Positions 38,307 through 49,413 are shown, counted from the first letter of the stretch. The stretch: 64,000 nucleotides of DNA from Candidatus Hydrogenedentota bacterium (GCA_963668025.2 CAXXTH010000017.1:1216001-1280000); one strand, 5' to 3'. The notes: a model not told the origin generated them from the sequence alone. A program made the numbers and translations.

Positions 38307-38339
38307 GAAACGAGGAGTCCATTCAGACTCCTCGCTTTC
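38307..38339 (-). terminator. Hairpin closing the phage-like operon
   Basis: cgaggagtc-cattca-gactcctcg stem flanked by gaaa and tttc, about 20 bp past the holin stop. Confidence 0.65.
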
Positions 38340-38356: not shown

Positions 38357-38725
38357 TCAGGCGTTCTTCAGCTTGCTCACCAGCCGTGTGATCCATAGGT
38401 CGATATACGAATCGCCCAGCTCTTTCAAGACATCCACGCCCGCCGTGCGGCCATATTCGACAGCCGTTTGGCGCGCCATGCTCCGGGCCTGCTCACGCTC
38501 CTGCGCCGTCAGCTTTCCGTCCTCACGCGCTTGTTTCAATTGCTGCACATAGGTGCGGTAGGTGGCGTCCACCGCAGCTTCAACGGCTTCGACCGCTGTA
38601 TAGTAGCGTTGTTTTTTCACGCGGGCGAACCAGTCGCCCGTCTTGAACATAGCCCACAATCCCCCGACCAAACTGCCCACTGCAGCCACCACTTGGTCCG
38701 CTTGAATCACTTCCGCCAGCACCAT
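38357..38725 (-). CDS. Putative holin (single N-terminal TM)
   Basis: One TM segment then AVEAAV...DGKLT..E amphipathic region; follows the peptidase. Confidence 0.6.
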   Translation of the reverse strand: MVLAEVIQADQVVAAVGSLVGGLWAMFKTGDWFARVKKQRYYTAVEAVEAAVDATYRTYVQQLKQAREDGKLTAQEREQARSMARQTAVEYGRTAGVDVLKELGDSYIDLWITRLVSKLKNA

Positions 38726-38742
38726 CCGCCTTGCTCCTTTCG

Positions 38743-39237
38743 TTATTGTCCCCGTTCCCGGTTGTCCGCATGCACATGCCCGTCCCGGTAATCATCCTTC
38801 ACCCAATCGAAATGCCGCCTACACGCCGCCCCCAACACCTGCTGGGGAATACGCACCCGGCCGCGCACCCGCACAGCCGCCAAATCCACCGCAATGCCGC
38901 CGAACCGCGCCAAATGCTTCGACTGCCGCGCCACCGCGCCGCCTTCATCCGCCCAGCCCAAACGCCGCGCCAGGCGCTCGAGATCCGCCTGTGTCCGCAT
39001 GGCGTCCGTTACCACGAGCCAGACTTCTTCGCCCGCCGCCGCGCACAGTTCCCTCCGCACCCGTTCGAGAGACTCGATGACGCTCCGGTGGACCATGCAC
39101 AACCCTTCGCCGTTCTCGAATTCCTTCAGCCGGAAATGCGCCAGCGCTTCGCCGTCCACGTCCACCAACAGGCGCAGGTCATTACGCCCTTTATACGAAT
39201 TCCCGCTTGTCGATGATGTATCCATTGGTTCCGTCAT
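38743..39237 (-). CDS. M15-type Zn peptidase (putative endolysin)
   Basis: HFRLKEF, LERVR, R, SKHL...AVD and HVHAD: His/Asp/His zinc-ligand pattern of M15A; start uncertain. Confidence 0.78.
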   Translation of the reverse strand: MTEPMDTSSTSGNSYKGRNDLRLLVDVDGEALAHFRLKEFENGEGLCMVHRSVIESLERVRRELCAAAGEEVWLVVTDAMRTQADLERLARRLGWADEGGAVARQSKHLARFGGIAVDLAAVRVRGRVRIPQQVLGAACRRHFDWVKDDYRDGHVHADNRERGQ

Positions 39238-39712
39238 CCGTTTGGTTAATGGCCGACATGCCCAGCCGTAAAAATAGGTGCGCCAATGGAATGCAGTCCG
39301 TGTCAGGCGTTGGCGCGGATGGAGAGGCCGACTCCGTTCCAGTTTTTACACTGACATCCCACGTTCCCAGCCTGGCCTGCACCAGATCGAGCCGCACGCC
39401 AGTCAATGGTTCCGGTACGGCAGGCGTCTGCACGGATACATCCAAGTGGTATGGCAGATGGGAAATGAACGCCCAACCCGGCTGCACCATTACCGACATT
39501 CCCGGCGTAGCGCTAGGTATAACCTGCAAATCCGATTCCGCCGCCCCGCGTATCACGCCGTCGCCGCCGCCCCATGCCAAATTCAACAAATAACATACCC
39601 GTTCAAGCGCCGCCTCGATGCGGTCATCCCACAAGTTCAATTTCGCCGACGACACGGGCCGTTCCTGAAATGCCCACGCCGTCTTGATGTACGCTTGCCC
39701 CTTAATCGCCAT
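39191..39712 (-). CDS. Putative baseplate/minor tail protein
   Basis: GMSVMVQPGWAFI, RLDLVQARL, KTGT..ASPSAP, IPLA and I.D.R pattern of siphophage minor tail proteins. Confidence 0.65.
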   Translation of the reverse strand: MAIKGQAYIKTAWAFQERPVSSAKLNLWDDRIEAALERVCYLLNLAWGGGDGVIRGAAESDLQVIPSATPGMSVMVQPGWAFISHLPYHLDVSVQTPAVPEPLTGVRLDLVQARLGTWDVSVKTGTESASPSAPTPDTDCIPLAHLFLRLGMSAINQTDDGTNGYIIDKREFV

Positions 39713-39741
39713 CTTGCCCTCCATGCCGTCCCGGCAGGCGT

Positions 39742-41475
39742 TCATGCATCTAAATGCAGCCCCGCATCCAGCGTTATCGCTTCTTCATCGAGTGAAAACG
39801 CGCTCAGATAATCGGCTCCCGGTTGATTCGCTTGCAGGAATCCCAGCGGTTCCGCCACCGAACGCAACGGAGAGGCCAGTTCCGCTACCGTCTGCACCGA
39901 ACGCCCAGACAAACGATGGGATACCCGCGCCACCCGGCCCGCCAGCCTCCCTGCGAACCGGCTTCCCCATTCGCCGTCCAAGGGCGCATCCAGCCGCTTC
40001 AATGTGCTTCCACGCACTTCAATGATATCGCCCGCATCAAGGTGGGCATCCCCAGCGTAAAATTCGATGGTTCCCACACACCCCGGATACGCCACATCAT
40101 CCAGCAGCCCCGCCGCCAGCCGGTCCGCATCCTCTTCAAGCCGTAATGCGGACACTTCCAGGCTAGATGCATGCGCACCCAGCAGCGCCACGCTCTCCGC
40201 GCGCACATACGTTTTTCGCAGCGCCCCACCCACGGGATCGCTCGACAACACCAGCTCATTCACGATCCCTTCCGAGGAGGCCCCCAGTTCAACGCCCGTC
40301 CGCGTACGGTTCGCAAATGCCACACGCTTTACCTGCGCCGGACCGAACGACACGGCCCCGTCCACATCCAGGCTCCATACATGGCCGCCCGCCGCGTAGG
40401 CGAGCAGCGCCAGCAATCCGAATAATCCGCCGTCATAATCCAGACGTCCCAGCACGGTTGCCGCACCCGATACCGAATCCGTGTTTGCCGTGCGATACGA
40501 CAGAAAATCCTTCAGCGCCATCTCCGGCTTGAGCAGCGCGCCATTTTCCGGCAATTCCACATCCGCCGCGCCTTGCTCCACCATCGCCGCGTTCACGCAT
40601 TCTCCGCCGCCATACGCCAGGCCCACATACCGGCCCGCCGCATCCATCCGGAAGTCATATGCTCCCCGCGCGTTCCGGTGCGGGTTCAGTTCGACGTAAT
40701 CCACGCCCTTTTCATCGAGCCAGGCTTGCAGCGCCTCTTTCGCCGTTTTAGCATTCAAGGCATATCCGCTTGCCGCATACCGCGCCGCCGTCCATTCCTC
40801 CGTCTCCGGATGGCGCGCCACGGCTTCCGCATCGAGCGCCAGAGATTCACAGTCCAACATGAGCAACCGCAAATCTGGCCACGCCACGCCGTCCACTACA
40901 AGGCCCGCGATGGTGCGCCCATCTTTCGCATAGGCCCCGCTGGCATCCACGCGCACCCCGCCCGCCCATTGGCCTGAAGCAATGCCGCCCACTGCCAATG
41001 CATTTCCGTCTGTCTTGCGCGTCAGAAACTTTTGATACTCCCGCCGCGCCCCATCGGGATACGCCTCATGCGCCACGTTGTAATGGATGGGGCTTATCGC
41101 GCGCTGAATGGCGTCCTTCACGATGGCCCCCACGGTCCGGTTCTGGTAGAGCTGCGAAAGGGCCACATCCGCGAACCGCGCTTCCGTCTCGAACGCCACC
41201 AGTTCATGGAATCGCACATATCGGTCCAGGATTAGCTTCTTCGTGTCGCTCCATCGCGCCGACGCCTGGGTGACGTACCCAACGCAGGCCTTCCGGCCTT
41301 CGAGCCACAACTCGACCCGGTAGCCTGGCCCCAGCGTATCGATGGACACGGGCAGTAATCCCGCGATATGGTCCGCTTGCCCGGCCCATGCCCGTTCCGC
41401 GTCGAGGAGCGGCGCTTCGTGAAACCGCGCCACGCGCCGCCCCCACGTGTCATACACATCAATCCGGTAATCCAC
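39742..41475 (-). CDS. Putative tail hub/Tal-like protein with inserted thermonuclease-like domain
   Basis: Follows the Dit-like gene; WSLDVDGAVSF, IVNELVL, ESVALLG, LDAGDIIEV and RVARVSH hub-like motifs; insert DGRTI/RLLMLD/DAAGR/VNAAMVEQGAA. Confidence 0.65.
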   Translation of the reverse strand: MDYRIDVYDTWGRRVARFHEAPLLDAERAWAGQADHIAGLLPVSIDTLGPGYRVELWLEGRKACVGYVTQASARWSDTKKLILDRYVRFHELVAFETEARFADVALSQLYQNRTVGAIVKDAIQRAISPIHYNVAHEAYPDGARREYQKFLTRKTDGNALAVGGIASGQWAGGVRVDASGAYAKDGRTIAGLVVDGVAWPDLRLLMLDCESLALDAEAVARHPETEEWTAARYAASGYALNAKTAKEALQAWLDEKGVDYVELNPHRNARGAYDFRMDAAGRYVGLAYGGGECVNAAMVEQGAADVELPENGALLKPEMALKDFLSYRTANTDSVSGAATVLGRLDYDGGLFGLLALLAYAAGGHVWSLDVDGAVSFGPAQVKRVAFANRTRTGVELGASSEGIVNELVLSSDPVGGALRKTYVRAESVALLGAHASSLEVSALRLEEDADRLAAGLLDDVAYPGCVGTIEFYAGDAHLDAGDIIEVRGSTLKRLDAPLDGEWGSRFAGRLAGRVARVSHRLSGRSVQTVAELASPLRSVAEPLGFLQANQPGADYLSAFSLDEEAITLDAGLHLDA

Positions 41476-41494
41476 CGCACACCCCGCTGTCCGT

Positions 41495-42172
41495 TCACCA
41501 CCACCGGTCCCGGAACGCCACCGTGACATCCGCCGCATGTGAGCCTCCCGGCCCATCCGCATACGCCAGCGCCGTTCCGCTTGGCGCAATCACGGGAAAC
41601 AGGCCCGAGGTATACGGCGTCACGTCCACGCCTTCCAGCGTGGCCCGTTCCGCCACGCCGTCCAACACGAGCGACTGCCCATCCGCCACCGTGCCCGCAT
41701 ACGCAATCGTCCGCACGCCATCGCTGAACGAAGGATTTTTCACCGTTCCTACCGCCACAAGCGTGATCACGACGGGTGAATTCATATTGCCTTGCGCGTT
41801 CAATGTCCGTATGGCGCTTGCGGTGCGTATTTGCCATGCCGTGGCCCGCTCCACCTCTGACTCCTCGAAAGGCTCCCGCGCCGACAATTGCAGCGTAAAC
41901 GAAGCCGCCAGTGGTTGCGCCGACACTTCCCGTGTGAATCCCGCGCGCCGCACCCACATCCGCCGTCCGTCACGTAGCGACAACGCCGCCGAATAGTCTT
42001 CCGCCGAAGCCACGTTCACGATGGCGTCCAATTGGGCTTCCGCGTCCGCCACATTCACGAGAAGGCCCTGAATCTCGATGGACCGTTCATCCCGGCCGCC
42101 CACCTCTTCGAGCTTCTCCTGCGCATGAGTGTGCAGTGGGTCCAGCGCCAGCGCCCCCAGCGTGATCCCCAT
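41495..42172 (-). CDS. Putative distal tail (Dit-like) protein
   Basis: FTLQLSAREPF, GNMNSPVVITL, NPS, GQSLVLDG, GLFPVIAPSG and FRDRWW: Sipho tail-family pattern. Confidence 0.72.
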   Translation of the reverse strand: MGITLGALALDPLHTHAQEKLEEVGGRDERSIEIQGLLVNVADAEAQLDAIVNVASAEDYSAALSLRDGRRMWVRRAGFTREVSAQPLAASFTLQLSAREPFEESEVERATAWQIRTASAIRTLNAQGNMNSPVVITLVAVGTVKNPSFSDGVRTIAYAGTVADGQSLVLDGVAERATLEGVDVTPYTSGLFPVIAPSGTALAYADGPGGSHAADVTVAFRDRWW

Positions 42173-42175
42173 CGC

Positions 42176-42592
42176 CTACGCCTCCCTCAGCACGGACTGT
42201 GTATCCGTCACGTCCGCCACGGCCCGCGCGGGACGTTCCGCGCCCGCCGGTTCCAGTAAATACCACGCCTGGTCTTCGAGCCACGCCGCCATGGTCATCA
42301 GCGCCTGGAACCGGTTCCCGTCCGACACCACGTTCGATCCCAGCGACACCTGTTTCACGTCAAACGCATCTTTGGCCGCCAGCGCGCCATACAGCCGCGC
42401 CCCCGCCAGCAGCGTCTCACCCGCCACGAGCCCCTTATCCGGCGGGTCTATTTCCGCATCCGGGTCCAGCCTCCTCAACACCTCGCCGTGTGCTTCCTCA
42501 ATCACTTGTTCGATCAGTTCCGATGGAACGCGCGCCGCATCCCCAAGCTGGAACCGCTCCCGCACCAGCGCCTCAGTCGTAAACGCCGCCAT
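42176..42592 (-). CDS. Putative head-tail adaptor
   Basis: 138 aa; FTT...VR...SELIEQVIEEAH.EV N-terminal helices; first gene after the capsid. Confidence 0.6.
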   Translation of the reverse strand: MAAFTTEALVRERFQLGDAARVPSELIEQVIEEAHGEVLRRLDPDAEIDPPDKGLVAGETLLAGARLYGALAAKDAFDVKQVSLGSNVVSDGNRFQALMTMAAWLEDQAWYLLEPAGAERPARAVADVTDTQSVLREA

Positions 42593-42628
42593 CGCATCAC
42601 CCCCGTCAATTATTTTTCATGGGCATCT

Positions 42629-42737
42629 GGGGAACCCTTTCTTTCGTAGAAAGGGTTCCCCAGCCCCCCTCCTAAAAAACTTCAATTCCGCTTCGCGTGC
42701 GAAGCACAACTAAAAGTTTTTGGAGAGGGGTCCGGGG
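42629..42737. repeat. REP-like inverted pair; second unit split by the IS4 element (continues 44084-44122)
   Basis: ggggaacccttt...aaagggttccccagcccccctcctaaaaaactt versus aagtttttggagaggggtccgggg|agaacctttttccaaaaaggtcctcccc. Confidence 0.75.
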
Positions 42738-44083
42738 CATAAGCGCTAACCTTATATTGCCTCCATCAAACCACGCAACTGTTGCATTCGCTTCCTTGGG
42801 GGCTCTGCCAGATCTCTCGCGATTTCCCGCCACTGGCTGATGCATTCGGATAATCCAAGCGTCGGATTGACCGCTTGGCGAAGGAGGTGCAAGGCGAAAG
42901 AGAGTTCGCGCCACAAGGAGGCCTCGCGGTAGATATCGTCACAGTGGATATCCCCAGGGGGAAAAAAAGCGCCCCTCATCAACAATGGCCTGGGCAAGGC
43001 AGGAGACAAGCATTTTGCCGTGGAGCCAAGCCTTGGCCGACTCCTCGTCTTCCTTTGGCAAGTGTCCCAATCCCATAATCGACTTCATCCGTTTGAAGGC
43101 CAACTCCACCTGCCAGCGCGCCCGGTACAACTCGATAACCTGGTGCGGCGATATTGAATCCGGCAAGGATGTGGCCAGTATGACGTAGCGATGCAGCACA
43201 AGCGTTTCGGGATCCAGACTCCGTTGCTTCTTGCTTAGCTCTTTCTTCGCCCGGCGGATGCTTTGCGCGGCGGCTTCCTCGCTCAAACGCAGCGCACAGA
43301 TCCGTAGCGCCAGCTCCTCCTGCCCCTTTGCCTGGCCAATCAGGGCCCAATCACCCACTTCCCCTACCTCTAGAGACGCCACCAATCCAGCCAGTGGACA
43401 GGTGTTCCCTGCGCCATTCCGAAGACTGAAGGCTTTATTCTTAAGACGCGTCAGAAAGTTCCCGTTATGGCCGAGCACATAACGAAAACCTTTGAGATGC
43501 CCATAAGCACGATCTCCGAGCAATAGGTCGCCAGGCGAGACTCGGAATCGCGCGAAACTCTCTCCAACCTTCGGGCCGGTAATATGAAACTCATCGCATT
43601 GAAGACCGTATAAACATAGGCTGTAGTGAACGCGCCAGTCCGTTCCCGTGCTTCCCGGTTCGCAGACAACGCTCGCATCCACGACGCGAACACGGTAATA
43701 CTCCAGCCATGCAGGCCGAACGCACGGTCCCGCGCGACGTTGAAGTATCTCTACGGCCATCCACCGCAGCCATTCCCCCGAAGCACGCAACCGCTTAAGA
43801 AGTGCCACATCCGACACGGACGCCACATTCCCTTCTCGAGCACGAACGACAGCCTCACGCAGAGAACACCCATCCGCCAAATGGATCAACAGCAAGCGCA
43901 GGAGCGATTCCGTCGACGATATAGAACGAGGCTTGCGGTGCCACGCGCCCAATTCACGAGCCTTGTCCTCCCATCCAGCAGGGAGAAAACGCTGTAAACA
44001 CTGCCAATTCTCATTCCACGCTGCTTCCATGCACCCAGTATAGAAGATTCGTCAGGAGACATCAAATAAGGTTAGCGCTTATG
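42738..44083 (-). mobile_element. IS4-family insertion sequence (1346 bp), 11-bp target duplication GGGGTCCGGGG
   Basis: Perfect 18-bp IR cataagcgctaaccttat / ataaggttagcgcttatg; TSD at 42727-42737 and 44084-44094. Confidence 0.92.
42939..44030 (-). CDS. IS4-family DDE transposase
   Basis: VVDAS, LGDRAY and YRARWQVELAFKRMKS (YREK) motifs. Confidence 0.92.
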   Translation of the reverse strand: MEAAWNENWQCLQRFLPAGWEDKARELGAWHRKPRSISSTESLLRLLLIHLADGCSLREAVVRAREGNVASVSDVALLKRLRASGEWLRWMAVEILQRRAGPCVRPAWLEYYRVRVVDASVVCEPGSTGTDWRVHYSLCLYGLQCDEFHITGPKVGESFARFRVSPGDLLLGDRAYGHLKGFRYVLGHNGNFLTRLKNKAFSLRNGAGNTCPLAGLVASLEVGEVGDWALIGQAKGQEELALRICALRLSEEAAAQSIRRAKKELSKKQRSLDPETLVLHRYVILATSLPDSISPHQVIELYRARWQVELAFKRMKSIMGLGHLPKEDEESAKAWLHGKMLVSCLAQAIVDEGRFFSPWGYPL

Positions 44084-44136
44084 GGGGTCCGGGGAGAACC
44101 TTTTTCCAAAAAGGTCCTCCCCGCTGCTTATTCCCC

Positions 44137-45180
44137 TCAGCTCCAATCGCTCCGCACCACCACGCGGGCCTTTTCGTAGATCACCGCGAAGTCCGTCACC
44201 ACTGTCAGGTAGGTGCGATCCCATTGCTGGTTGATCAGCTTGTCGCTCTCCACCAGCAAATCCTGCTCCGTCAGCTTCTGCACGGCATACCGCGCATCCA
44301 AGATCGTTAGCTTGTTCGCAGGCTGCTCCGCCATGGGCACCAGCTTCGCCCCTAGCGGCGTCGGCAGTTCGCCCGACTGCGCGAAATTAAACAGCGTCGC
44401 GTCCTCGAACGGCTCCAGTTGCAACAACGCTTGCACCAGCGCCGCATCCGCCAGCATATGCGTCGGACGAAAGTAATGATCGAGCGCCAGTTTCATGTAG
44501 CCCTTCAAGATGTCCCCATACGCCCATGTCCCCGCCGTGGCCGTGTTGATCGACACCGGAGCCGTATCGCCGCCCGACGAATCCCCCTCCGCCAGCACCG
44601 TGGCCAGCCGTGCATCGAGATTCCGCCCCAGGCGTTCGCCAATGCGTTGGAGATGCACCCGCAGCACTTCCATCGACATGCGGCGGATCACCTCATACGA
44701 CGCGATCACTCCTCGCCCCTTCTTGTCCAGCCGCACCACGCGGTCTCCATATGTGATTTCCGACTCCGGGATTGAAGCCCCTTCCGCCACGTACATCAAT
44801 TCTTCCTGCGCCGCTGATTCCTGCACATACGGCACATCCACCGCCGCGCTTTCCACCGCCTGATCGTTCATGATCAACTGCGGATACATCGGCTTCGACT
44901 TCATCCCCGCCAGCACCGATTCCCGTACCATGTCCGGGAACAGCCATTTCGCGTTCGGGTCTGATTGGAAAAACCGGTCCACCGTGATTTTGTTCACGTC
45001 CACGCCGAACTCCGCCGCGCAGTAGTCCGCCGCATTCGTCCCCAATGCGCGGAAATACTGCCCATGCGATAGCCCCAGCGTGTTCAATGTTTCATACAGC
45101 TCGCGACCCCGGACCTGCCGCAGCCGTTCCGGCTCCTGACCCAAAAACGCCACCCGTTCCTTCATTCGCTCATGCGCCAT
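44137..45180 (-). CDS. Major capsid protein (HK97-fold)
   Basis: 347 aa; VAEGASIPESEITYG..VVRLDKKGRGVIASYEVIRR...LD HK97-like E-loop and spine helix. Confidence 0.88.
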   Translation of the reverse strand: MAHERMKERVAFLGQEPERLRQVRGRELYETLNTLGLSHGQYFRALGTNAADYCAAEFGVDVNKITVDRFFQSDPNAKWLFPDMVRESVLAGMKSKPMYPQLIMNDQAVESAAVDVPYVQESAAQEELMYVAEGASIPESEITYGDRVVRLDKKGRGVIASYEVIRRMSMEVLRVHLQRIGERLGRNLDARLATVLAEGDSSGGDTAPVSINTATAGTWAYGDILKGYMKLALDHYFRPTHMLADAALVQALLQLEPFEDATLFNFAQSGELPTPLGAKLVPMAEQPANKLTILDARYAVQKLTEQDLLVESDKLINQQWDRTYLTVVTDFAVIYEKARVVVRSDWS

Positions 45181-45210
45181 CGTTCTCATTCCCCCATCAT
45201 GCAAATGGCT

Positions 45211-45585
45211 TCACAGCAGCACGTGCGCCGCTCCCAAGCCCGATTTCACCACGATTCCTGAACCACTCCCCGAAGCCGGGGCCTTCACCTTGCCCGCCGT
45301 AGCCGATACCGAAATCCCATGTATGCCATCCACTACCGGCGCATTGCCGTCATAGGCGAACACGCAGATCCCCCGCACCCGCACGGGAATCCCCATGCGG
45401 TTCTCCGCCGCGTCCGCCAGCGCTTCGCCGAACACCGGCGCTTCCGCGCCCGCCGTATTGCTCACCGTATACGGCCCCACCAGCGCCACCGCGTCGCCCT
45501 TGCGAATATTCACGTTCCCGGAGGCCGCTGTCTGGCAGGCAATCACCAGCTCCGTCACCGGACCCCCCACATCTCCATACGCCAT
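45211..45585 (-). CDS. Capsid decoration/cement protein (DUF2190-like), short paralog
   Basis: IRKGDAVAL...VFGEALADAAE...IPVRVRG pattern; directly upstream of the capsid gene. Confidence 0.7.
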   Translation of the reverse strand: MAYGDVGGPVTELVIACQTAASGNVNIRKGDAVALVGPYTVSNTAGAEAPVFGEALADAAENRMGIPVRVRGICVFAYDGNAPVVDGIHGISVSATAGKVKAPASGSGSGIVVKSGLGAAHVLL

Positions 45586-45597
45586 TCCGCGAACTCC

Positions 45598-46284
45598 TCA
45601 CCCTTCCCGGGCAATCGCCAGCGCCACATCGGCGCGTTCTTCCGCATCGAGCGCCTCTGGCTGTGACACCGGTTCCGGCGGGTATTTCTGGTCGAACCGC
45701 ACTTCGAAAGCCCGCAGTTGCCCATGCACCTCATCCAGGCTCAGCCCATCGAGGGCTTTCCGCCAGACCGACTCATCAAATGTGTCTCCGTCCAATTCGC
45801 GCCCCAGCCCGCAGAATCGTTCGATAGCCCGCCGCCGCGCCTCGATGCCATCCCGCACCAGCCGCGCCGCCTGCCCGGACTCCACGCCCGCGGCATCGAG
45901 CGCCGCGCATACCGAACGCACCACGCCCAGCGGCAATCCCGGCTCCCGTTCCACGCATACCACCTGCCGTTCCGCGCCCAGCAGTAAAAACCGCTGCTGT
46001 CCCGGCCGCCCTTCGAGCCAGTAATACGTCCCCGCGTCCACCCGAACGGCGTCCCGGTCGTCATCCAGCCATGCCAGCGGATGCGGACCCTTCGCCTCTG
46101 CCCAACGCTCCTCCTCGAGCCCGCCGCCTTCGATCCGCCAACCCAGCAGGAAGCCGTCCGACTCGAGCCGCAAATCCAAGTGCGGCCCTTCCGCGTCCCG
46201 GTGCCGGTGCAGCACGAAACGCCCTGTGGGCGGCCCTGCCTTCACGCCTTCCGCGCCCGCTTCCCGCGTGATTTTCCAATACAT
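45598..46284 (-). CDS. LigD-type 3'-phosphoesterase-like domain fused to a helical scaffold-like domain
   Basis: RFVLHRH...HLDLRLESDG.L.GW, HPLAWL and VDAGTY match the LigD PE pattern RFVxQxH..HYDxRLExDG..W / HP..Y / WDxGxY. Confidence 0.72.
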   Translation of the reverse strand: MYWKITREAGAEGVKAGPPTGRFVLHRHRDAEGPHLDLRLESDGFLLGWRIEGGGLEEERWAEAKGPHPLAWLDDDRDAVRVDAGTYYWLEGRPGQQRFLLLGAERQVVCVEREPGLPLGVVRSVCAALDAAGVESGQAARLVRDGIEARRRAIERFCGLGRELDGDTFDESVWRKALDGLSLDEVHGQLRAFEVRFDQKYPPEPVSQPEALDAEERADVALAIAREG

Positions 46285-46296
46285 CCAACGCCTCCC

Positions 46297-46488
46297 TTAC
46301 CGGAGCAACTGCTCCGCCAGCGCCGCCACCACGCACGCCAGATTCGCCACCAGTAACAGCACCCCGCGCGCCAGCGTCGCCTCGAGCCGCCGCACCCGCT
46401 CCTTCAACTCGAGCAGGTCCGCCTCCACATTCCGGAACTGCACCTCATACGCCCGCTCGTACGGGCATGGTTCACAATTCACGCTCAT
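46297..46488 (-). CDS. Small coiled-coil plus C-terminal TM protein (XhlA/holin-like)
   Basis: 63 aa; LLELKERVRRLE followed by a hydrophobic segment; GGAGG RBS. Confidence 0.6.
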   Translation of the reverse strand: MSVNCEPCPYERAYEVQFRNVEADLLELKERVRRLEATLARGVLLLVANLACVVAALAEQLLR

Positions 46489-46496
46489 GGCCCTCC

Positions 46497-47186
46497 TCAC
46501 TCCGCCGCCCAAGCCCGCCGCGTCCATATTTCGAGCGGGCGATGGTAGGCCGCGCGCGCCGCTTCGAGCGCCCGCTCCGCGTTCAATGCAGGCTCACTCG
46601 CCACGAATCGCGTGCCCTGCGACCCTGACGGCACCACCGAGCCTTCGATCACCTCCAGCACGTTCCGCATGATGTAATGGCACGCCGCATCACCATACGA
46701 ACGCCCTGGCACGTGGTCGCAGGTCCGCAGATCTTTCCCGCACACGCTGCACTCCGGCGTCTGGAACGAGAACCCAATCGACGTCTCGCGGTACACTCCG
46801 CCCTCGATGTTCAAGATGAATCCCTCGTTCTCCCGCGTCCGCAGCACATACACATCCGGCCGCACCGATACATGCTTCTCATCCCGGTGCAGCCGCGACC
46901 GGAAAAACGTCCCCCGTGGCAGCGAACCCCGCACGTCATGCCGCTCCATCAGCGGACGCCCCGGCGTCAGTTCGTTGATCTTCACCAGCTCCTCTTCCGG
47001 GAAACGGCTGAAATGGCGGTCCACCTGGTCATGGCACAAGTCCATGGTGAACGCCACAAATTCCTGGCGTTCCAGGGGGCGCAGCGCGAAGCGGTTCACC
47101 TCCGCCAGCGTCCCGTCGTCCGCCGCATCCGCGCGCATCCCCACCAGCACGCCCTCGTGCCGGAAAACGAACGGTTCCAGTTCCAT
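46497..47186 (-). CDS. Prohead maturation protease with Cys/His metal-binding insert
   Basis: VDR..SRF, LMERHD, ETSIGF, CSVCG...CDH.PG..Y...C and EGSVV motifs; lies between portal and capsid. Confidence 0.78.
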   Translation of the reverse strand: MELEPFVFRHEGVLVGMRADAADDGTLAEVNRFALRPLERQEFVAFTMDLCHDQVDRHFSRFPEEELVKINELTPGRPLMERHDVRGSLPRGTFFRSRLHRDEKHVSVRPDVYVLRTRENEGFILNIEGGVYRETSIGFSFQTPECSVCGKDLRTCDHVPGRSYGDAACHYIMRNVLEVIEGSVVPSGSQGTRFVASEPALNAERALEAARAAYHRPLEIWTRRAWAAE

Positions 47187-47245
47187 GCATCCCCCTTTGC
47201 CTTTTGCGCTTTTTGTGCCTCTTGTGGCTAGAAAAACTCGTCCAC

Positions 47246-47926
47246 CTACAGCAGCGTCCAAACATAGCCGCCGCCCACCGCCACCGCGATGGTGGCCGCC
47301 GCATCTGCTACATCCACCTGCGTGTTGTCCCAGTCATCCGCCGCCACAGTCACCACCGCGCCGTCCACTGTCGCCGTCACGCCCGTCACGCCATACGTGG
47401 CGTCATTGATCACCGAAGCCAGCGCCGCCGCATCCGCCGCATTGTCCCCGCTGATCGAATATTTCCGTTCCGAAGGCGTCGTCGCCGTGGCATGCGCTGT
47501 GAACGTCACTCCATTGATTGTCACGGCATCTCCCGCCGCCACCGATGTGAGCGTCAGATACCGCTTTGTGGTCTCCGTTTTCAGATTCCGGCCCGTCCCA
47601 TTGCCCGACGCGGGCGGCTTCACGATCCCCCGGTTCACCGAAGCCGCGACGCCCCGCAGGCCATCCGTGGCCGGCAGCCCGCTCGAGAAGCGGAACTTCG
47701 CCACGCCTGACACCAGCACCGGTATCACTTGCGCGTTCTTGGTGGCCGCCGCCATGGCCTGCCCGAAGACCACGTCCTCCGCCGAGAACTCGTTCGTCAC
47801 ACGGAAAAGCCCCGTCAGCTTCACCGCGTCCCCTTTTGCGATATTCACGCCCCCCGAATTCGGCGTCACCATTGTCAGCACGTGCCAATGCTCCTGCCCG
47901 CCAACACCCTTGCCATACGCCACCAT
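47246..47926 (-). CDS. Capsid decoration protein, long paralog with an ~100-aa inserted domain
   Basis: Aligns by eye to 45211-45585 (AYG.VGG, VNI.KGDAV.L.G, VFG.A.A.A, VK.PASG.G.G, terminal LL). Confidence 0.72.
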   Translation of the reverse strand: MVAYGKGVGGQEHWHVLTMVTPNSGGVNIAKGDAVKLTGLFRVTNEFSAEDVVFGQAMAAATKNAQVIPVLVSGVAKFRFSSGLPATDGLRGVAASVNRGIVKPPASGNGTGRNLKTETTKRYLTLTSVAAGDAVTINGVTFTAHATATTPSERKYSISGDNAADAAALASVINDATYGVTGVTATVDGAVVTVAADDWDNTQVDVADAAATIAVAVGGGYVWTLL

Positions 47927-47948
47927 GCCTAAATCCCCTTTCTTGTTT

Positions 47949-49193
47949 TCAGCCGATGCCAAGCGTGCGGGCCGCTTCCCCATGGGCCATAAAGCCCTGA
48001 TCCCGCAGCTTCACCGCATTGTCAATCGCCTTGCCCCGCGCCGACGCCTCCTTCAGCGCGTCCACCGTCCGGTTCTGCCGCATATGCACCCGCGCCCGCG
48101 CGCTGCCCCACATCAGCGCCAGCTCGAAGTTGTAGAGCCGCTCCAGAATCCGCTTCACGCTCCGGTTCACCGCCTCCACCTGCCGGTTGATGATCTCGAA
48201 CTGCGCCGTCCCATAGGTCTCCGTAGTCCCGTAGTTGCGACCCAGCAGGATAGGCATCAGGTGCGTTCCTGTGATCACTTGCTCCTCGATGGCCTTGTGG
48301 TTCTCGTAAAACACCAGGCCCTCCTGGCCCCCGCGCACCAGATTCACCTGCACGTTGTCATAGGTCACCAGATTCTGATCCACCTCGAGGCCCGACAGCT
48401 TTTCCCGCAGCCCCGCGAAGCTCCCTTCGACCCGGTTTCGGTATGCCTCCGCCGATTCCCCCCGCTCGCGTGGCTCCGGCGCATACTGCACGTGCAGCTT
48501 AGGCCACCCCGCGTTATGCGCCGCCTTCGCCATGTCCTCCAGCAGCCGCTGCTGGATCTTCACCACGAACGGAATCGACCGTAGCATCGAACGCCCATAC
48601 GGATTCGTCCCGTCCCGGTCCAGGCCCACATACACGAAGCGCTCCTTCGGCAGCCGGACCTCTTCCCCGTTCACCACCTGGTACGGTTGTAAGCCCCCTG
48701 CTTCGCGCTTGAACCGCACCGTCCACACATCCACCGGAACCACGTCGTGGACGGACTCCCGGCTTTTCGACAGCACGATCTCGAGCGCCGCCGCCCCGTA
48801 CGTGAACAGCGACGCATAGAACACATCCAGCAGCCCGTCCATCCCCCGGTCGCCGCCGTTCACCCGCGTATCCAGCTCCCGCAGCAGACGCTCCGCGCGC
48901 CACTTCGCCACATCCGATGAAGGCTCCACGATCTCGATGTCGTAGCCCGTCTGGCATAGCCGCTTCCACGTCCACACCGCATCCGAGATATCCGGGATCG
49001 CATCCCGCAGAAACCGGTACACCGGCAGCATGAAAAACGGCGTCTCATTCGGCAGCCGCACGAACTCATGCGCGCCCATCCCCAGCGCCCGCACATCCTC
49101 CGCCACCGAAACCGCCCGGAATGTCTCCAGCCGCGTCCCCCGGGGCCGACTCTCTTCCTGCTTGCCCATCCAACGCTTCAGCCACTTCGCCAT
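47949..49193 (-). CDS. Phage portal protein
   Basis: 414 aa; SLFTYGAAALEIV, NPYGRSMLRS and EQVITGTHLMPILLG portal motifs; first gene of the block. Confidence 0.82.
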   Translation of the reverse strand: MAKWLKRWMGKQEESRPRGTRLETFRAVSVAEDVRALGMGAHEFVRLPNETPFFMLPVYRFLRDAIPDISDAVWTWKRLCQTGYDIEIVEPSSDVAKWRAERLLRELDTRVNGGDRGMDGLLDVFYASLFTYGAAALEIVLSKSRESVHDVVPVDVWTVRFKREAGGLQPYQVVNGEEVRLPKERFVYVGLDRDGTNPYGRSMLRSIPFVVKIQQRLLEDMAKAAHNAGWPKLHVQYAPEPRERGESAEAYRNRVEGSFAGLREKLSGLEVDQNLVTYDNVQVNLVRGGQEGLVFYENHKAIEEQVITGTHLMPILLGRNYGTTETYGTAQFEIINRQVEAVNRSVKRILERLYNFELALMWGSARARVHMRQNRTVDALKEASARGKAIDNAVKLRDQGFMAHGEAARTLGIG

Positions 49194-49413
49194 CGCACCA
49201 CCCCCCGCTCCATATCCATCATTCACCCTTTATGGCCACTCTGTTGCACAAATCCTATCCCGTAGCATGGGCGTCCCGCCCATGAAAACGCAGGATTTAT
49301 TACCAGCTAAAAAAGCGCAAGAGATCACAAACATCTTTTTGCGTCTCTTGCGCCTTTTGAGGCCAAATATCCCTTCTTGCCCTATCCCCTCCGCACGCGC
49401 TACAATCCCCGCC

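What the first reader, a model, noticed from the sequence alone, without database searches (positions are those of the whole stretch)
38357..49193. Candidate domesticated phage-derived particle system (GTA-like): intact head, baseplate and lysis genes, no mobility or packaging genes
Seen: 13 co-oriented ORFs with short gaps and no visible frameshifts, ending in a terminator hairpin. Order: portal, long decoration, protease, small TM protein, phosphoesterase/scaffold, short decoration, capsid, adaptor, Dit-like, hub-like, baseplate-like, M15 peptidase, holin. The block sits directly between a UroD-like gene and a divergent ruvA. Host-type intergenic repeats lie inside and at its edge (42629, ~47200, 49262), and the only IS landed between genes. 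No integrase, att repeat, repressor, replication gene or terminase was recognised; only ~220 bp separate the portal start from ruvA. Established: gene transfer agents and other domesticated phage elements keep structural and lysis genes under purifying selection, lose integration and replication genes, and can be split over several loci. Inference: a long-resident host-maintained particle system, possibly an undescribed GTA-like family.
Basis: partly seen in the sequence, partly recalled or inferred. Interest (0 to 1): 0.9.

Follow-up and report, generated by a model that had tools for sequence, protein, structure and literature searches.

The report
Domesticated phage particle genes, Hydrogenedentota-wide
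A block of phage head, stub-tail and lysis genes has been passed down with the host chromosome through almost a whole uncultivated bacterial phylum, so it looks like a newly recognised, independently tamed virus-derived particle whose cargo is still unknown.

Summary
The block is real: 12 credible co-oriented minus-strand genes (portal, decoration paralogue, prohead-protease-like, LigD-phosphoesterase-like, decoration, HK97 capsid, adaptor-sized gene, Dit, hub, unknown, LAS/M15-like peptidase, holin-like), plus one doubtful small ORF and one IS between genes. The organism is a Candidatus Hydrogenedentota bacterium. The capsid gene is present, single-copy, in 115 of 135 genomes of the phylum. 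Gene order is kept in 18 of 18 relatives' loci examined, while the flanking genes differ. The head-gene alignment does not reject the RpoB tree (AU p=0.10), whereas shuffled trees are rejected. Median dN/dS is 0.06-0.34 for every gene. One genus has the block split over two contigs, and three families have lost the tail genes but keep the head. No close phage relative exists: identity drops from at least 57% to at most 37%. I found no integrase, att repeat or tRNA, and no terminase with eight terminase models. So the reading "long-resident, host-maintained particle system" is supported. GTA function is untested, and the missing terminase weighs against the classical mechanism. Two unusual features are a staphylococcal-nuclease domain in the hub and a LigD-type 3'-phosphoesterase domain in the scaffold position. 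My searches found no paper describing this.

The parts
47949..49193 (-). portal protein. The ORF is open to 49226; homologues start at the ATG at 49193.
   Evidence: phrog_3753 E 5e-47 and Portal_Mu 1e-9. 51-78% identical in relatives. Start position.
47246..47983 (-). 245-aa paralogue of the decoration protein with a C-terminal extension. Among the loci examined it sits at this position only in this genome.
   Evidence: In relatives, tblastn places its N-terminal ~140 residues only on the g06 orthologue. No family found.
46497..47186 (-). prohead-protease-like protein with an invariant Cys/His cluster (g03)
   Evidence: phrog_16951 E 1.6e-32. The same family sits between portal and capsid in Bacillus phage CUBc25. 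Atlas lead to Peptidase_S78/S77 clusters. No sequence match in the PDB.
   Evidence: Overlaps g05 by 224 nt and has no family. One weak tblastn hit in 18 loci.
45598..46284 (-). g05: N-terminal LigD 3'-phosphoesterase-like domain plus a conserved C-terminal domain, in the position where phages carry a scaffold gene
   Evidence: Profile A1 against PDB 3p43/3p4h, E 1e-7 and 9e-7. Invariant H28, D30, H35, D37, R39, K65, H68. The family has 381 proteins; 10 of the 11 that carry an organism name in the 120 rows shown are named Hydrogenedentes/-ota/-ales.
45211..45585 (-). small head decoration / virion structural protein (g06)
   Evidence: phrog_4588 E 6e-6. Same family and position as in phage CUBc25.
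44137..45180 (-). HK97-fold major capsid protein
   Evidence: phrog_3922 E 3e-49 and PF25209 3e-12. 57-76% identical across the phylum.
42736..44087 (-). IS4-type insertion sequence (transposase at 42939-44030), inserted between the capsid and adaptor genes
   Evidence: DDE_Tnp_1 1.7e-16. Terminal inverted repeats and a repeated flank. 11 full-length copies at 99.9-100% identity in the genome.
42176..42592 (-). 138-aa gene in the head-tail adaptor position (g09); function inferred from position only
   Evidence: Conserved in 17 of 18 loci. No PHROG, Pfam or PDB match.
41495..42172 (-). distal tail protein (Dit)
   Evidence: phrog_33 E 7e-10. Profile against SPP1 gp19.1 (2x8k) E 5.7e-5.
39742..41475 (-). 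tail hub (gp27/gp44/VgrG fold) with an inserted staphylococcal-nuclease-like domain
   Evidence: AF2 model with pLDDT 82. Foldseek hub hits at E 1e-11 to 1e-7. Profile against thermonuclease E 1.4e-7. Invariant R203, D208, E210, R282.
39191..39712 (-). conserved 173-aa protein after the hub (g12), function unknown
   Evidence: phrog_5339 'virion structural protein' E 1.7e-5. No significant PDB match. Lost together with the hub in some lineages.
38743..39237 (-). LAS/M15-type zinc peptidase-like protein (g13), a candidate endolysin
   Evidence: AF2 model with pLDDT 72. Foldseek top hit Ply500 endolysin at E 1.1e-3, then Hedgehog-N, LysB4, VanX and LdcB. Invariant H108, D118, H154, H156, D158. 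Atlas lead to Peptidase_M15_3.
38357..38725 (-). 122-aa holin-like protein (g14). From reading the sequence, it has one N-terminal hydrophobic segment.
   Evidence: phrog_13712 'holin' E 5.7e-4. Conserved in 16 of 18 loci.
38312..38333 (-). hairpin with an 8-bp stem, 23 nt after the last stop codon; a possible terminator with a weak T tail
   Evidence: Sequence read. Unique in the genome. Not called by the consensus scan.
49221..49248 (-). promoter-like two-block motif TGCAAC-N17-TGAAT, 55 nt upstream of the portal start
   Evidence: The same motif lies within 140 nt of the portal start in 8 of 29 loci; shuffles give 0.12 +/- 0.34. The loci are related, so this is only a lead.
49266..49284 (.). 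host-wide palindromic repeat between ruvA and the portal gene
   Evidence: 92 copies in the genome.

Best explanation
This is a phage-derived gene module that a Hydrogenedentota ancestor captured and that the host lineage has kept ever since. I put that part at about 0.9.

Proposed working, step by step:
1. (Inferred) It is expressed as one unit from a host-type promoter upstream of the portal gene.
2. (Inferred) It builds an HK97-type head from portal, maturation protease, capsid protein and a decoration protein. The LigD-type 3'-phosphoesterase protein (g05) is made from the scaffold position and probably ends up inside the head.
3. (Inferred) A stub tail is added, made of an adaptor-sized protein, a Dit ring, a trimeric hub carrying a staphylococcal-nuclease domain, and one further protein. 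There is no tube, tape measure or sheath.
4. (Inferred) An M15-like peptidase and a holin-like protein release the particles by lysing the producer cell.

My leading guess for what the particle does is that it works like a gene transfer agent, carrying nucleic acid out of the producer cell. The two nucleic-acid enzymes may process DNA ends or extracellular DNA. This last step is inference only, and the packaging motor is not identified.

Shown here: the identities of the parts, vertical inheritance, purifying selection, loss of the mobility and terminase genes, and the split locus.
Inferred: that particles form, that cells lyse, and what the cargo is.
For: Distribution:
- The capsid gene is single-copy in 36 of 41 relatives and in 115 of 135 genomes of the phylum (78 of 86 high-quality genomes). 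This includes two genomes of other orders.
- Homologues carry Hydrogenedentes names.

Content and borders:
- Gene order is the same in 18 of 18 loci.
- No ORF family shared by 3 or more of 19 loci lies outside the portal-to-holin span, so the borders are sharp and the flanks differ between genomes.
- Flanks are housekeeping genes here and in relatives.

Vertical descent (22 genomes, capsid + portal + protease):
- The RpoB topology is not rejected (AU p=0.10, delta-lnL 33). Five label-shuffled topologies are rejected (delta-lnL 868 or more).
- Mantel r = 0.70 (1 of 5000 permutations reached it); r = 0.85 without the two outgroup genomes.

Selection:
- Within-genus NG86 dN/dS medians are 0.06 (capsid) to 0.34 (Dit) across all 11 genes.

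Endogenisation:
- In genus g11 the portal, protease and g05 lie on one contig and the rest on another, and all are intact.
- The window has no tRNA and no att-like repeat.
- Host repeats lie inside the block and at its edge.

No phage source:
- The best phage-database identity is 25-33% for the capsid and at most 32% for the portal.
- Among 1.84 billion representatives, the family is one full-length cluster plus fragments. The next proteins are at most 37% identical.
- In IMG/VR only 2 of 48 loci are close, and both are 7.7-7.9 kb copies of this same block.

Link to nucleic acid:
- g05 matches LigD-PE structures at E 1e-7 and keeps the His/Asp/Arg motif.
- The hub carries an SNase domain whose R35, D40, E43 and R87 equivalents are invariant in 17 sequences (the SNase numbering is recalled).

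Lysis:
- g13 has a LAS/M15 fold with an endolysin as top hit, and g14 is holin-like.

Three of the six defining GTA features in PMC9662315 (passage read) are met.
Against: No packaging ATPase:
- The own genome (93.75% complete) has no match to PF03237, PF17289, PF03354, PF20441, PF04466, PF05876, phrog_38 or TIGR01547.
- The one sub-threshold hit is Cas3.
- tblastn with the TerL of the nearest annotated phage finds nothing.
- No cluster protein has a Walker A motif.
- In relatives TerL is sporadic (8, 7 and 2 of 41 genomes) and unlinked to the block.
- As far as I recall, all characterised GTAs encode a TerL.

Tail and distribution:
- No tube or tape measure gene was found. The search was limited: only tblastn with one phage's genes.
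- Families f13, f4 and f11 lack the hub and g12 (f13 and f4 also g09 and Dit), yet keep the head under dN/dS of 0.04-0.12. Tail-mediated delivery therefore cannot be the universally selected function.
- Five well-assembled genomes lack the capsid altogether, so the system is dispensable.

This genome and relatives:
- In this genome an IS separates the head genes from the tail and lysis genes and may be polar.
- At the SNase D21-equivalent position the window's copy has Arg.
- G005 has a stop codon in g09.

Other limits:
- The holin and protease calls are weak.
- There are no expression data.
- The host tree rests on a single marker.
Confidence: 0.42

Rival explanations
1. The module is host-maintained and does build particles, but they carry no DNA. 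The selected unit is the portal-bearing HK97 shell with the g05 enzyme inside, or a protein-delivering or killing particle armed with the hub nuclease. That would be a compartment or a bacteriocin-like device rather than a gene transfer agent.
For: - No terminase or other ATPase was found.
- Three families keep the head, g13 and g14 without the hub and g12 (f13 and f4 also without g09 and Dit), still under purifying selection.
- g05 is universal in the scaffold position and is absent from the homologous module of phage CUBc25.
- The hub carries an enzyme domain.
Against: - The portal stays under strong constraint even where the tail is lost (dN/dS 0.065-0.084). A closed compartment would not obviously need a portal.
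- Both added enzymes belong to families that act on nucleic acids.
- Lysis-type genes fit a released particle better than an internal organelle.
- As far as I recall, no such portal-bearing DNA-free system is known.
Confidence: 0.33
2. The module is an immobilised satellite-like or defence element. Its procapsids capture the terminase-DNA complex, and perhaps the tail tube, of an infecting phage. This would divert or abort the infection, or give rise to transducing particles.
For: - It encodes a capsid, portal, adaptor and tail tip, but no terminase, tube or tape measure. That parts list recalls capsid-forming satellites (comparison recalled).
- Terminase_6-type phages do occur in the phylum: 8 of 41 and 7 of 41 genomes.
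- The module's nearest phage relatives use that terminase type.
Against: - There is no integrase, replication or regulatory module.
- Inheritance is vertical over the whole phylum. That would require portal-terminase compatibility with fast-evolving phages over a very long time.
- The capsid family is isolated from all known phage capsids.
Confidence: 0.1
3. The module is a mobile phage or satellite that spreads horizontally among Hydrogenedentota and was binned into their genomes.
For: - The genomic neighbourhood differs between genera.
- Two IMG/VR contigs carry the block.
- GC is 0.62 against a genome mean of 0.55.
Against: - It is single-copy and sits on long chromosomal contigs, including two one-contig genomes and the 1.6-Mb contig here.
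- Its tree is compatible with RpoB.
- It has no integrase, att repeat, tRNA or replication genes.
- It is split over two loci in one genus.
- The IMG/VR contigs contain only the block itself.
Confidence: 0.03
4. The module is an inert, decaying prophage remnant.
For: - The terminase, tail tube and integration genes are missing.
- An IS lies inside the block.
- Some lineages have lost the tail genes or the whole block.
Against: - All 11 genes have dN/dS of 0.04-0.43 in the within-genus pairs.
- Reading frames are intact across the 30 relatives' loci tabulated. The only in-gene stop among the 14 loci checked for stops is in one g09 copy.
- The capsid is 57-76% identical across a phylum in which RpoB is 63-84% identical.
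Confidence: 0.02

Closest known systems
RcGTA-type gene transfer agents (Rhodogtaviriformidae) and the other recognised GTAs (viriforms)
   Same: - Built from caudoviricete-derived head, Dit, hub and lysis genes.
- Fully endogenised, with no integrase or replication genes.
- Can be split over several loci.
- Inherited vertically and co-diversifying with the host, under purifying selection.
The defining features are from PMC9662315 (passage read).
   Different: - The proteins are unrelated at the sequence level: the nearest phage module is a Bacillus-phage type, not an RcGTA type.
- No TerL or TerS was found.
- No tube or tape measure was found (one limited search). The stopper and terminator genes were not searched for.
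- The head module includes a LigD-PE-like protein, and the hub carries an SNase domain.
- The host is a different phylum.
- DNA packaging and transfer are untested.
The RcGTA gene order is recalled, not checked here.
Head module of Bacillus phage vB_BcM_CUBc25 (PV037644.1) and related uncultured phages
   Same: The genes match one by one and in the same order: portal (32% identity), phrog_16951 protein, phrog_4588 protein, then capsid (25% identity).
   Different: The phage has a TerL (Terminase_6N/6C, phrog_38) directly upstream of the portal, and a long tail with a tape measure. The Hydrogenedentota block lacks these and has g05 inserted.
Capsid-forming phage satellites (cf-PICI type); features recalled
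   Same: A small block that encodes its own HK97 capsid, portal, protease and connector but not a complete tail.
   Different: Satellites carry integrase, regulation, replication and packaging-specificity genes, and they are mobile and patchily distributed. None of that is seen here.
Encapsulins
   Same: An HK97-fold shell kept by the host, possibly with an enzyme targeted to its inside (inference for g05).
   Different: As I recall, encapsulins have no portal, protease, neck, tail or lysis genes. This block has all of these.

Membership tests
Gene transfer agent (definition of PMC9662315, passage read) | Uses caudoviricete-derived proteins to form caudovirion-like particles | tested here: met
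   Portal, HK97 capsid, Dit and hub were identified. The particles themselves have not been seen.
Gene transfer agent (definition of PMC9662315, passage read) | Mostly encapsidates random pieces of host DNA | not testable with these tools
   Needs sequencing of particle DNA. No terminase was found, which counts against it.
Gene transfer agent (definition of PMC9662315, passage read) | Genome fully endogenised in the host genome, often across several loci | tested here: met
   No integrase, att repeat, tRNA or replication genes. Housekeeping flanks. Split over two contigs in genus g11.
Gene transfer agent (definition of PMC9662315, passage read) | Own genome cannot be fully packaged because the head is small | not testable with these tools
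   Head size and packaged DNA length are unknown.
Gene transfer agent (definition of PMC9662315, passage read) | Mostly vertically inherited, co-diversifying with the host | tested here: met
   AU test p=0.10 for the RpoB topology, against delta-lnL of 868 or more for shuffled trees. Mantel r = 0.70. One host marker and 22 genomes only.
Gene transfer agent (definition of PMC9662315, passage read) | Encapsidated DNA is delivered to other cells | not testable with these tools
   Experimental. The tail genes are missing in three families.
Gene transfer agent (working requirement, recalled: the known GTAs encode a large terminase) | A TerL packaging ATPase-nuclease is encoded in the genome | tested here: not met
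   Eight terminase models plus tblastn with a cognate phage TerL were negative in a genome that is 93.75% complete. The same models do find TerL in other genomes of the phylum.
Integrated temperate prophage | Integrase and att sites, lysogeny control, replication and packaging genes next to the structural genes | tested here: not met
   No conserved gene family lies outside the portal-to-holin span in 19 loci. No tRNA and no att-like repeat.
Encapsulin nanocompartment | HK97-fold shell gene without portal or tail, paired with a cargo gene (recalled) | tested here: not met
   Portal, Dit, hub and lysis-type genes are present.
LigD 3'-phosphoesterase domain family (for g05) | Conserved His/Asp/Arg metal-binding and catalytic motif, and sequence similarity to LigD-PE | tested here: inconclusive
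   The profile hits PDB LigD-PE homologues at E 1e-7 and 9e-7 with the motif aligned. The single sequence scores below Pfam's LigD_N cut-off (16.4 against 31.1 bits). No structure or activity is available.
Staphylococcal nuclease (SNase) domain (in the hub) | OB-fold with the catalytic Arg/Asp/Glu/Arg set and Ca-binding Asp residues (numbering recalled) | tested here: inconclusive
   Profile E 1.4e-7. The R35, D40, E43 and R87 equivalents are invariant. The D21 equivalent varies and is Arg in this genome. The single-sequence Pfam score is below the cut-off.

The most novel reading that the evidence does not exclude
The conserved unit is a terminase-less, portal-bearing HK97 capsid that the host loads with a LigD-type 3'-phosphoesterase and, in most lineages, fits with a stub tail whose hub carries a nuclease. 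It would then not be a gene transfer agent at all. It would be a new functional class of virus-derived cell machinery, kept for the whole history of a phylum. It could be a portal-bearing compartment or enzyme-delivery particle, a living intermediate between tailed-phage capsids and encapsulins. Alternatively it could be a particle that takes up nucleic acid by a motor of non-terminase origin.
Probability: 0.3. Interest if true: 0.92.

Novelty: new variant of a known kind. Interest (0 to 1): 0.8.

Why it matters
Only a handful of independent phage domestications into particles are recognised. The paper read here (abstract and passages) evaluates three GTA groups. This would add one in an uncultivated phylum found in sludge and sediment, traceable to the phylum's root, with a different parts list.

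The missing terminase, the retained portal and the two nucleic-acid enzymes pose a clear question: how, and with what, is such a head filled? That question can be tested by expressing about 6-10 kb of DNA. It also bears on how capsids move between viral and cellular roles.

The tight capsid clade is also a practical warning. Virus-detection pipelines will call this host locus viral, and two IMG/VR entries already do.

Tried and rejected
- Complex prediction with capsid and g05 alignments returned 'no answer' (score 0.00). It is not evidence either way.
- The look-up of sequencing runs listed no RNA holder, so I did not use read laying. Nothing can be said on expression.
- The consensus promoter/terminator scan of the block found no more sites than shuffles do.
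- A regulon search with a first version of the upstream motif (TGCAAC-N7-10-CTAA) gave 11 genome sites against about 47 expected, and none was informative. The window's own site does not even fit that version. I dropped it.
- PDB sequence-profile searches found nothing for g03 and g09, and only insignificant hits for g12 and g13.
- Pfam at E up to 5 added only a sub-threshold LigD_N hit.
- The variable insert ORFs between the protease and g05 in four relatives have no Pfam family.
- The weak Terminase_6N hit in the own genome is Cas3.
- The ORFs next to the portal in G010 and G041 are TPR, DnaA-like and radical-SAM genes, not terminases.
- I first read the nesting of G041/G042 inside family f1 in the head tree as horizontal transfer. 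I withdrew that reading: the unrooted RpoB tree attaches them at the same place, and the AU test does not reject RpoB's topology.
- The first dN/dS run had mis-registered rows where tblastn matches ran through a stop codon. This was corrected.
- Literature searches: 'Hydrogenedentes' + 'gene transfer agent' gave 1 paper, unrelated by title and abstract. 'Hydrogenedent*' + 'capsid' gave 3 papers, unrelated by title and abstract. Two broader searches and passages of PMC13669383 showed no description of this block.
- Supplementary files of papers were not available and could hold such a listing.

Full report
**What is there**

The window is G000:C17:1216001-1280000, part of a 6.1-Mb, 24-contig genome that is 93.75% complete. 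On the minus strand between 49226 and 38357 lies a run of co-oriented ORFs with short gaps or small overlaps. Family and structure searches give the following, in gene order.

- **Portal.** phrog_3753 E 5e-47 and Portal_Mu 1e-9.
- **g02 (245 aa).** Its first ~140 residues are a paralogue of the small decoration protein.
- **g03 (229 aa).** phrog_16951, function unknown, E 1.6e-32. It has an invariant Cys/His cluster, and the Atlas gives a lead to Peptidase_S78/S77 clusters.
- **g05.** The N-terminal half matches solved LigD 3'-phosphoesterase homologues (profile against 3p43/3p4h, E 1e-7 and 9e-7). The His-x-Asp...His-x-Asp-x-Arg motif is invariant in 18 sequences.
- **g06.** A small virion protein, phrog_4588.
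- **HK97-fold major capsid protein.** phrog_3922 E 3e-49.
- **IS4-type element.** It lies between genes. The genome holds 11 full-length, near-identical copies.
- **g09 (138 aa).** No recognisable family.
- **Dit.** phrog_33 E 7e-10, and SPP1 gp19.1 at E 5.7e-5.
- **Hub (577 aa).**
  - The AF2 model has pLDDT 82. Foldseek hits are the hubs of eCIS, Mu gp44, T4 gp27 and VgrG at E 1e-11 to 1e-7.
  - Its middle matches staphylococcal nuclease (profile E 1.4e-7).
- **g12.** Conserved, function unknown.
- **g13.**
  - The model (pLDDT 72) has a phage L-alanyl-D-glutamate endolysin as best Foldseek hit (E 1.1e-3), followed by other LAS-fold proteins.
  - The His/Asp/His-x-His set is invariant.
- **g14 (122 aa).** Holin-like, phrog_13712 E 5.7e-4.

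The flanks are a UroD-like gene and divergent ruvA. Further out lie Mla-type transport genes, a dehydroquinase, an ABC ATPase and a GH38 hydrolase.

**Who has it**

Named homologues of the capsid protein are from Candidatus Hydrogenedentes/Hydrogenedentota.

- The capsid gene was found once per genome in 36 of 41 relatives (30 of 33 high-quality genomes).
- Over the phylum it was found in 115 of 135 genomes (78 of 86 high-quality genomes; 58 of 66 genera). Identity is 57-76%, including in the two genomes from other orders.
- Five well-assembled genomes lack it even with a profile search, so it can be lost.

In 18 relatives' 13-20 kb loci the order is always portal, g03, g05, g06, capsid, g09, Dit, hub, g12, (g13), g14. 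g13 was detected in 10 of 18 loci and g14 in 16 of 18.

An all-against-all comparison of every ORF of 80 aa or more in 19 loci found no family shared by three or more loci outside the portal-to-holin span. The module has sharp borders and a different neighbourhood in each genus.

Three kinds of variant occur.

- **Split locus.** In genus g11 the block is split. Portal, g03 and g05 sit on one contig between a TPR gene and a DnaA-like gene. The rest sits on another contig. All genes are intact.
- **Tail loss.**
  - Families f13 and f4 lack g09, Dit, hub and g12.
  - Family f11 lacks hub, g12 and g13.
  - The hub profile finds nothing anywhere in five such genomes.
- **Insert.** Some genera carry a 1-2.3 kb insert of unknown genes between g03 and g05.

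**Inheritance and selection**

I used the 22 genomes for which I held both an RpoB locus and a cluster locus with capsid and portal. Nine further cluster loci were left out for lack of an RpoB locus, or, in genus g11, lack of a portal in the locus.

- The concatenated capsid + portal + protease tree recovers the same close pairs and the family-f1 group as RpoB.
- The head alignment does not reject the RpoB topology (AU p=0.10, delta-lnL 33). Five label-shuffled versions are rejected (delta-lnL 868-948).
- Pairwise distances correlate: Mantel r = 0.70, with 1 of 5000 permutations as high. Without the two outgroup genomes r = 0.85.
- Within-genus pairs with dS below 1.5 give median NG86 dN/dS as follows:

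| Gene | Median dN/dS |
|---|---|
| capsid | 0.061 |
| portal | 0.084 |
| g13 (one pair only) | 0.094 |
| g14 | 0.098 |
| g12 | 0.112 |
| g03 | 0.115 |
| g06 | 0.128 |
| g05 | 0.140 |
| hub | 0.145 |
| g09 | 0.156 |
| Dit | 0.34 |

- The only in-gene stop among the 14 loci checked for stops is in g09 of G005.

**Not a recent phage**

- In the phage collection the best capsid matches are 25-33% identical (10 records). The best portal matches are at most 32% identical (13 records).
- Against 1.84 billion 50%-identity representatives, the family collapses to one full-length representative (73%) plus fragments (58-87%). Every other listed protein is at most 37% identical.
- The eight nearest outsiders I looked up sit in clusters of 1-3 members. 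One is named as a Brevibacillus phage capsid.
- In IMG/VR, 2 of 48 related loci are close (67% and 60%). Both are 7.7-7.9 kb fragments holding only the tail-less form of this block. The other 46 are at most 30% identical.
- The window has no tRNA and no att-like flanking repeat.
- A host palindrome with 92 genomic copies sits between ruvA and the portal gene. A second host hairpin sits inside the block.
- GC (0.62) and GC3 (0.66-0.84) are above the genome's values (0.554 for GC; 0.656 +/- 0.075 for GC3 of long ORFs). I cannot interpret this difference.

**The missing motor**

The nearest annotated phage module is in Bacillus phage vB_BcM_CUBc25. It reads TerL (Terminase_6N/6C, phrog_38), portal, phrog_16951 protein, phrog_4588 protein, capsid, then a long tail with a tape measure.

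- Of its 15 proteins, only the portal, the phrog_16951 protein and the capsid find anything in this genome. They find it only at the block.
- Eight terminase models find nothing in the own genome: PF03237, PF17289, PF03354, PF20441, PF04466, PF05876, phrog_38 and TIGR01547. The one sub-threshold hit is Cas3.
- The models do work in this phylum. They find TerL in 8, 7 and 2 of 41 genomes, on contigs unrelated to the block.
- No block protein has a Walker A motif.
- In the deep-branching G041 the gene upstream of the portal is a radical-SAM gene.

**How it most likely works**

Shown:
- a phage head, stub-tail and lysis module;
- captured before the phylum diversified;
- stripped of integration, replication and terminase genes;
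- kept by the host under purifying selection.

Inferred:
- It still makes particles: a head with a decorated HK97 shell, with g05 probably co-assembled, and a tail reduced to adaptor, Dit, hub and g12.
- The particles are released by a peptidase and holin pair.

Both lineage-specific additions are nucleic-acid enzymes. From memory, SNase-type cleavage leaves 3'-phosphate ends, and LigD-PE removes 3'-phosphates, so the two chemistries fit each other.

This tips me towards a nucleic-acid-related, GTA-like role, at about 0.4. The lack of any terminase, and the survival of head-only versions, make a DNA-free or otherwise novel role almost as likely, at about 0.3. A helper-dependent satellite or defence role (0.1), an active mobile element (0.03) and a dead remnant (0.02) fit the data worse.

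**Comparison and novelty**

Of the six defining GTA features in PMC9662315 (passage read):
- three are met here: phage-derived parts, endogenisation across loci, and vertical co-diversification;
- three need experiments: random host DNA in the particles, a head too small for the block's own genes, and delivery of the DNA to other cells.

The practical requirement of a TerL was tested and not met. I therefore do not file the block as a GTA. It resembles one in evolutionary status, not in demonstrated function.

My four literature searches and the passages read show no description of this block. Supplementary files could not be seen.

I rate it a new variant of a known kind (a host-domesticated phage particle), with a real chance of being something further removed.

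Noticed in passing
window 42736-44087: An IS4-type insertion sequence with terminal inverted repeats. The same ~11-nt sequence flanks it on both sides. The genome holds 11 full-length copies at 99.9-100% identity, so it was active recently. Here it separates the head genes from the tail and lysis genes and could be polar.
   Followed up: partly
window 49266-49284 and 42629-42661: Two host repeat types. A 19-nt palindrome is present 92 times in the genome. A longer hairpin has a 12-nt arm that occurs 14 times. I did not look at their distribution or function.
   Followed up: partly
window 49221-49248; upstream of the portal in L015, L016, L022, L024, L028, L062, L070: A two-block motif, TGCAAC-N16-17-T(A/G)(A/G)A(A/T), lies 52-62 nt (in two loci 93-99 nt) upstream of the portal start in 8 of 29 loci. 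Shuffles give 0.12 +/- 0.34. It may be a promoter for a specific sigma factor. The loci are related, so the count overstates the support.
   Followed up: partly
L023 5784-6587, L025 5889-6533, L027 13988-15640, L029 13523-14743: A variable extra ORF family (214-550 aa) is inserted between the protease-like gene and g05 in four relatives. It has no Pfam family.
   Followed up: partly
L015 (G005) about 9650: g09 of G005 carries an in-frame TAG at about residue 106 of 138. The congeneric G118 has it intact. This is either a real nonsense mutation or an assembly error.
   Followed up: no
window 38357-49226: GC (0.62) and GC3 (0.66-0.84) of the block exceed the genome's values (0.554 for GC; 0.656 +/- 0.075 for GC3 of long ORFs). 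The cause is unknown: it could be expression-linked codon bias or ancestral composition.
   Followed up: no
L092, L093 (IMG/VR contigs): Two entries of a public virus catalogue are simply fragments of this host block in its tail-less form. This is an example of a domesticated locus being scored as viral.
   Followed up: yes
G000:C17:328303-330642 (L030 562-2901): A Cas3 helicase-nuclease gene (HD, DEAD and Cas3 C-terminal domains). It turned up as a sub-threshold terminase P-loop hit, so the genome probably has a type I CRISPR-Cas system.
   Followed up: partly
protein P0326: One g05 homologue is labelled 'Candidatus Bathyarchaeia archaeon' by its source. Nine of the other ten organism-named rows shown are Hydrogenedentes/-ota/-ales and one is 'FCB group bacterium'. 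This is probably a binning or labelling error.
   Followed up: no
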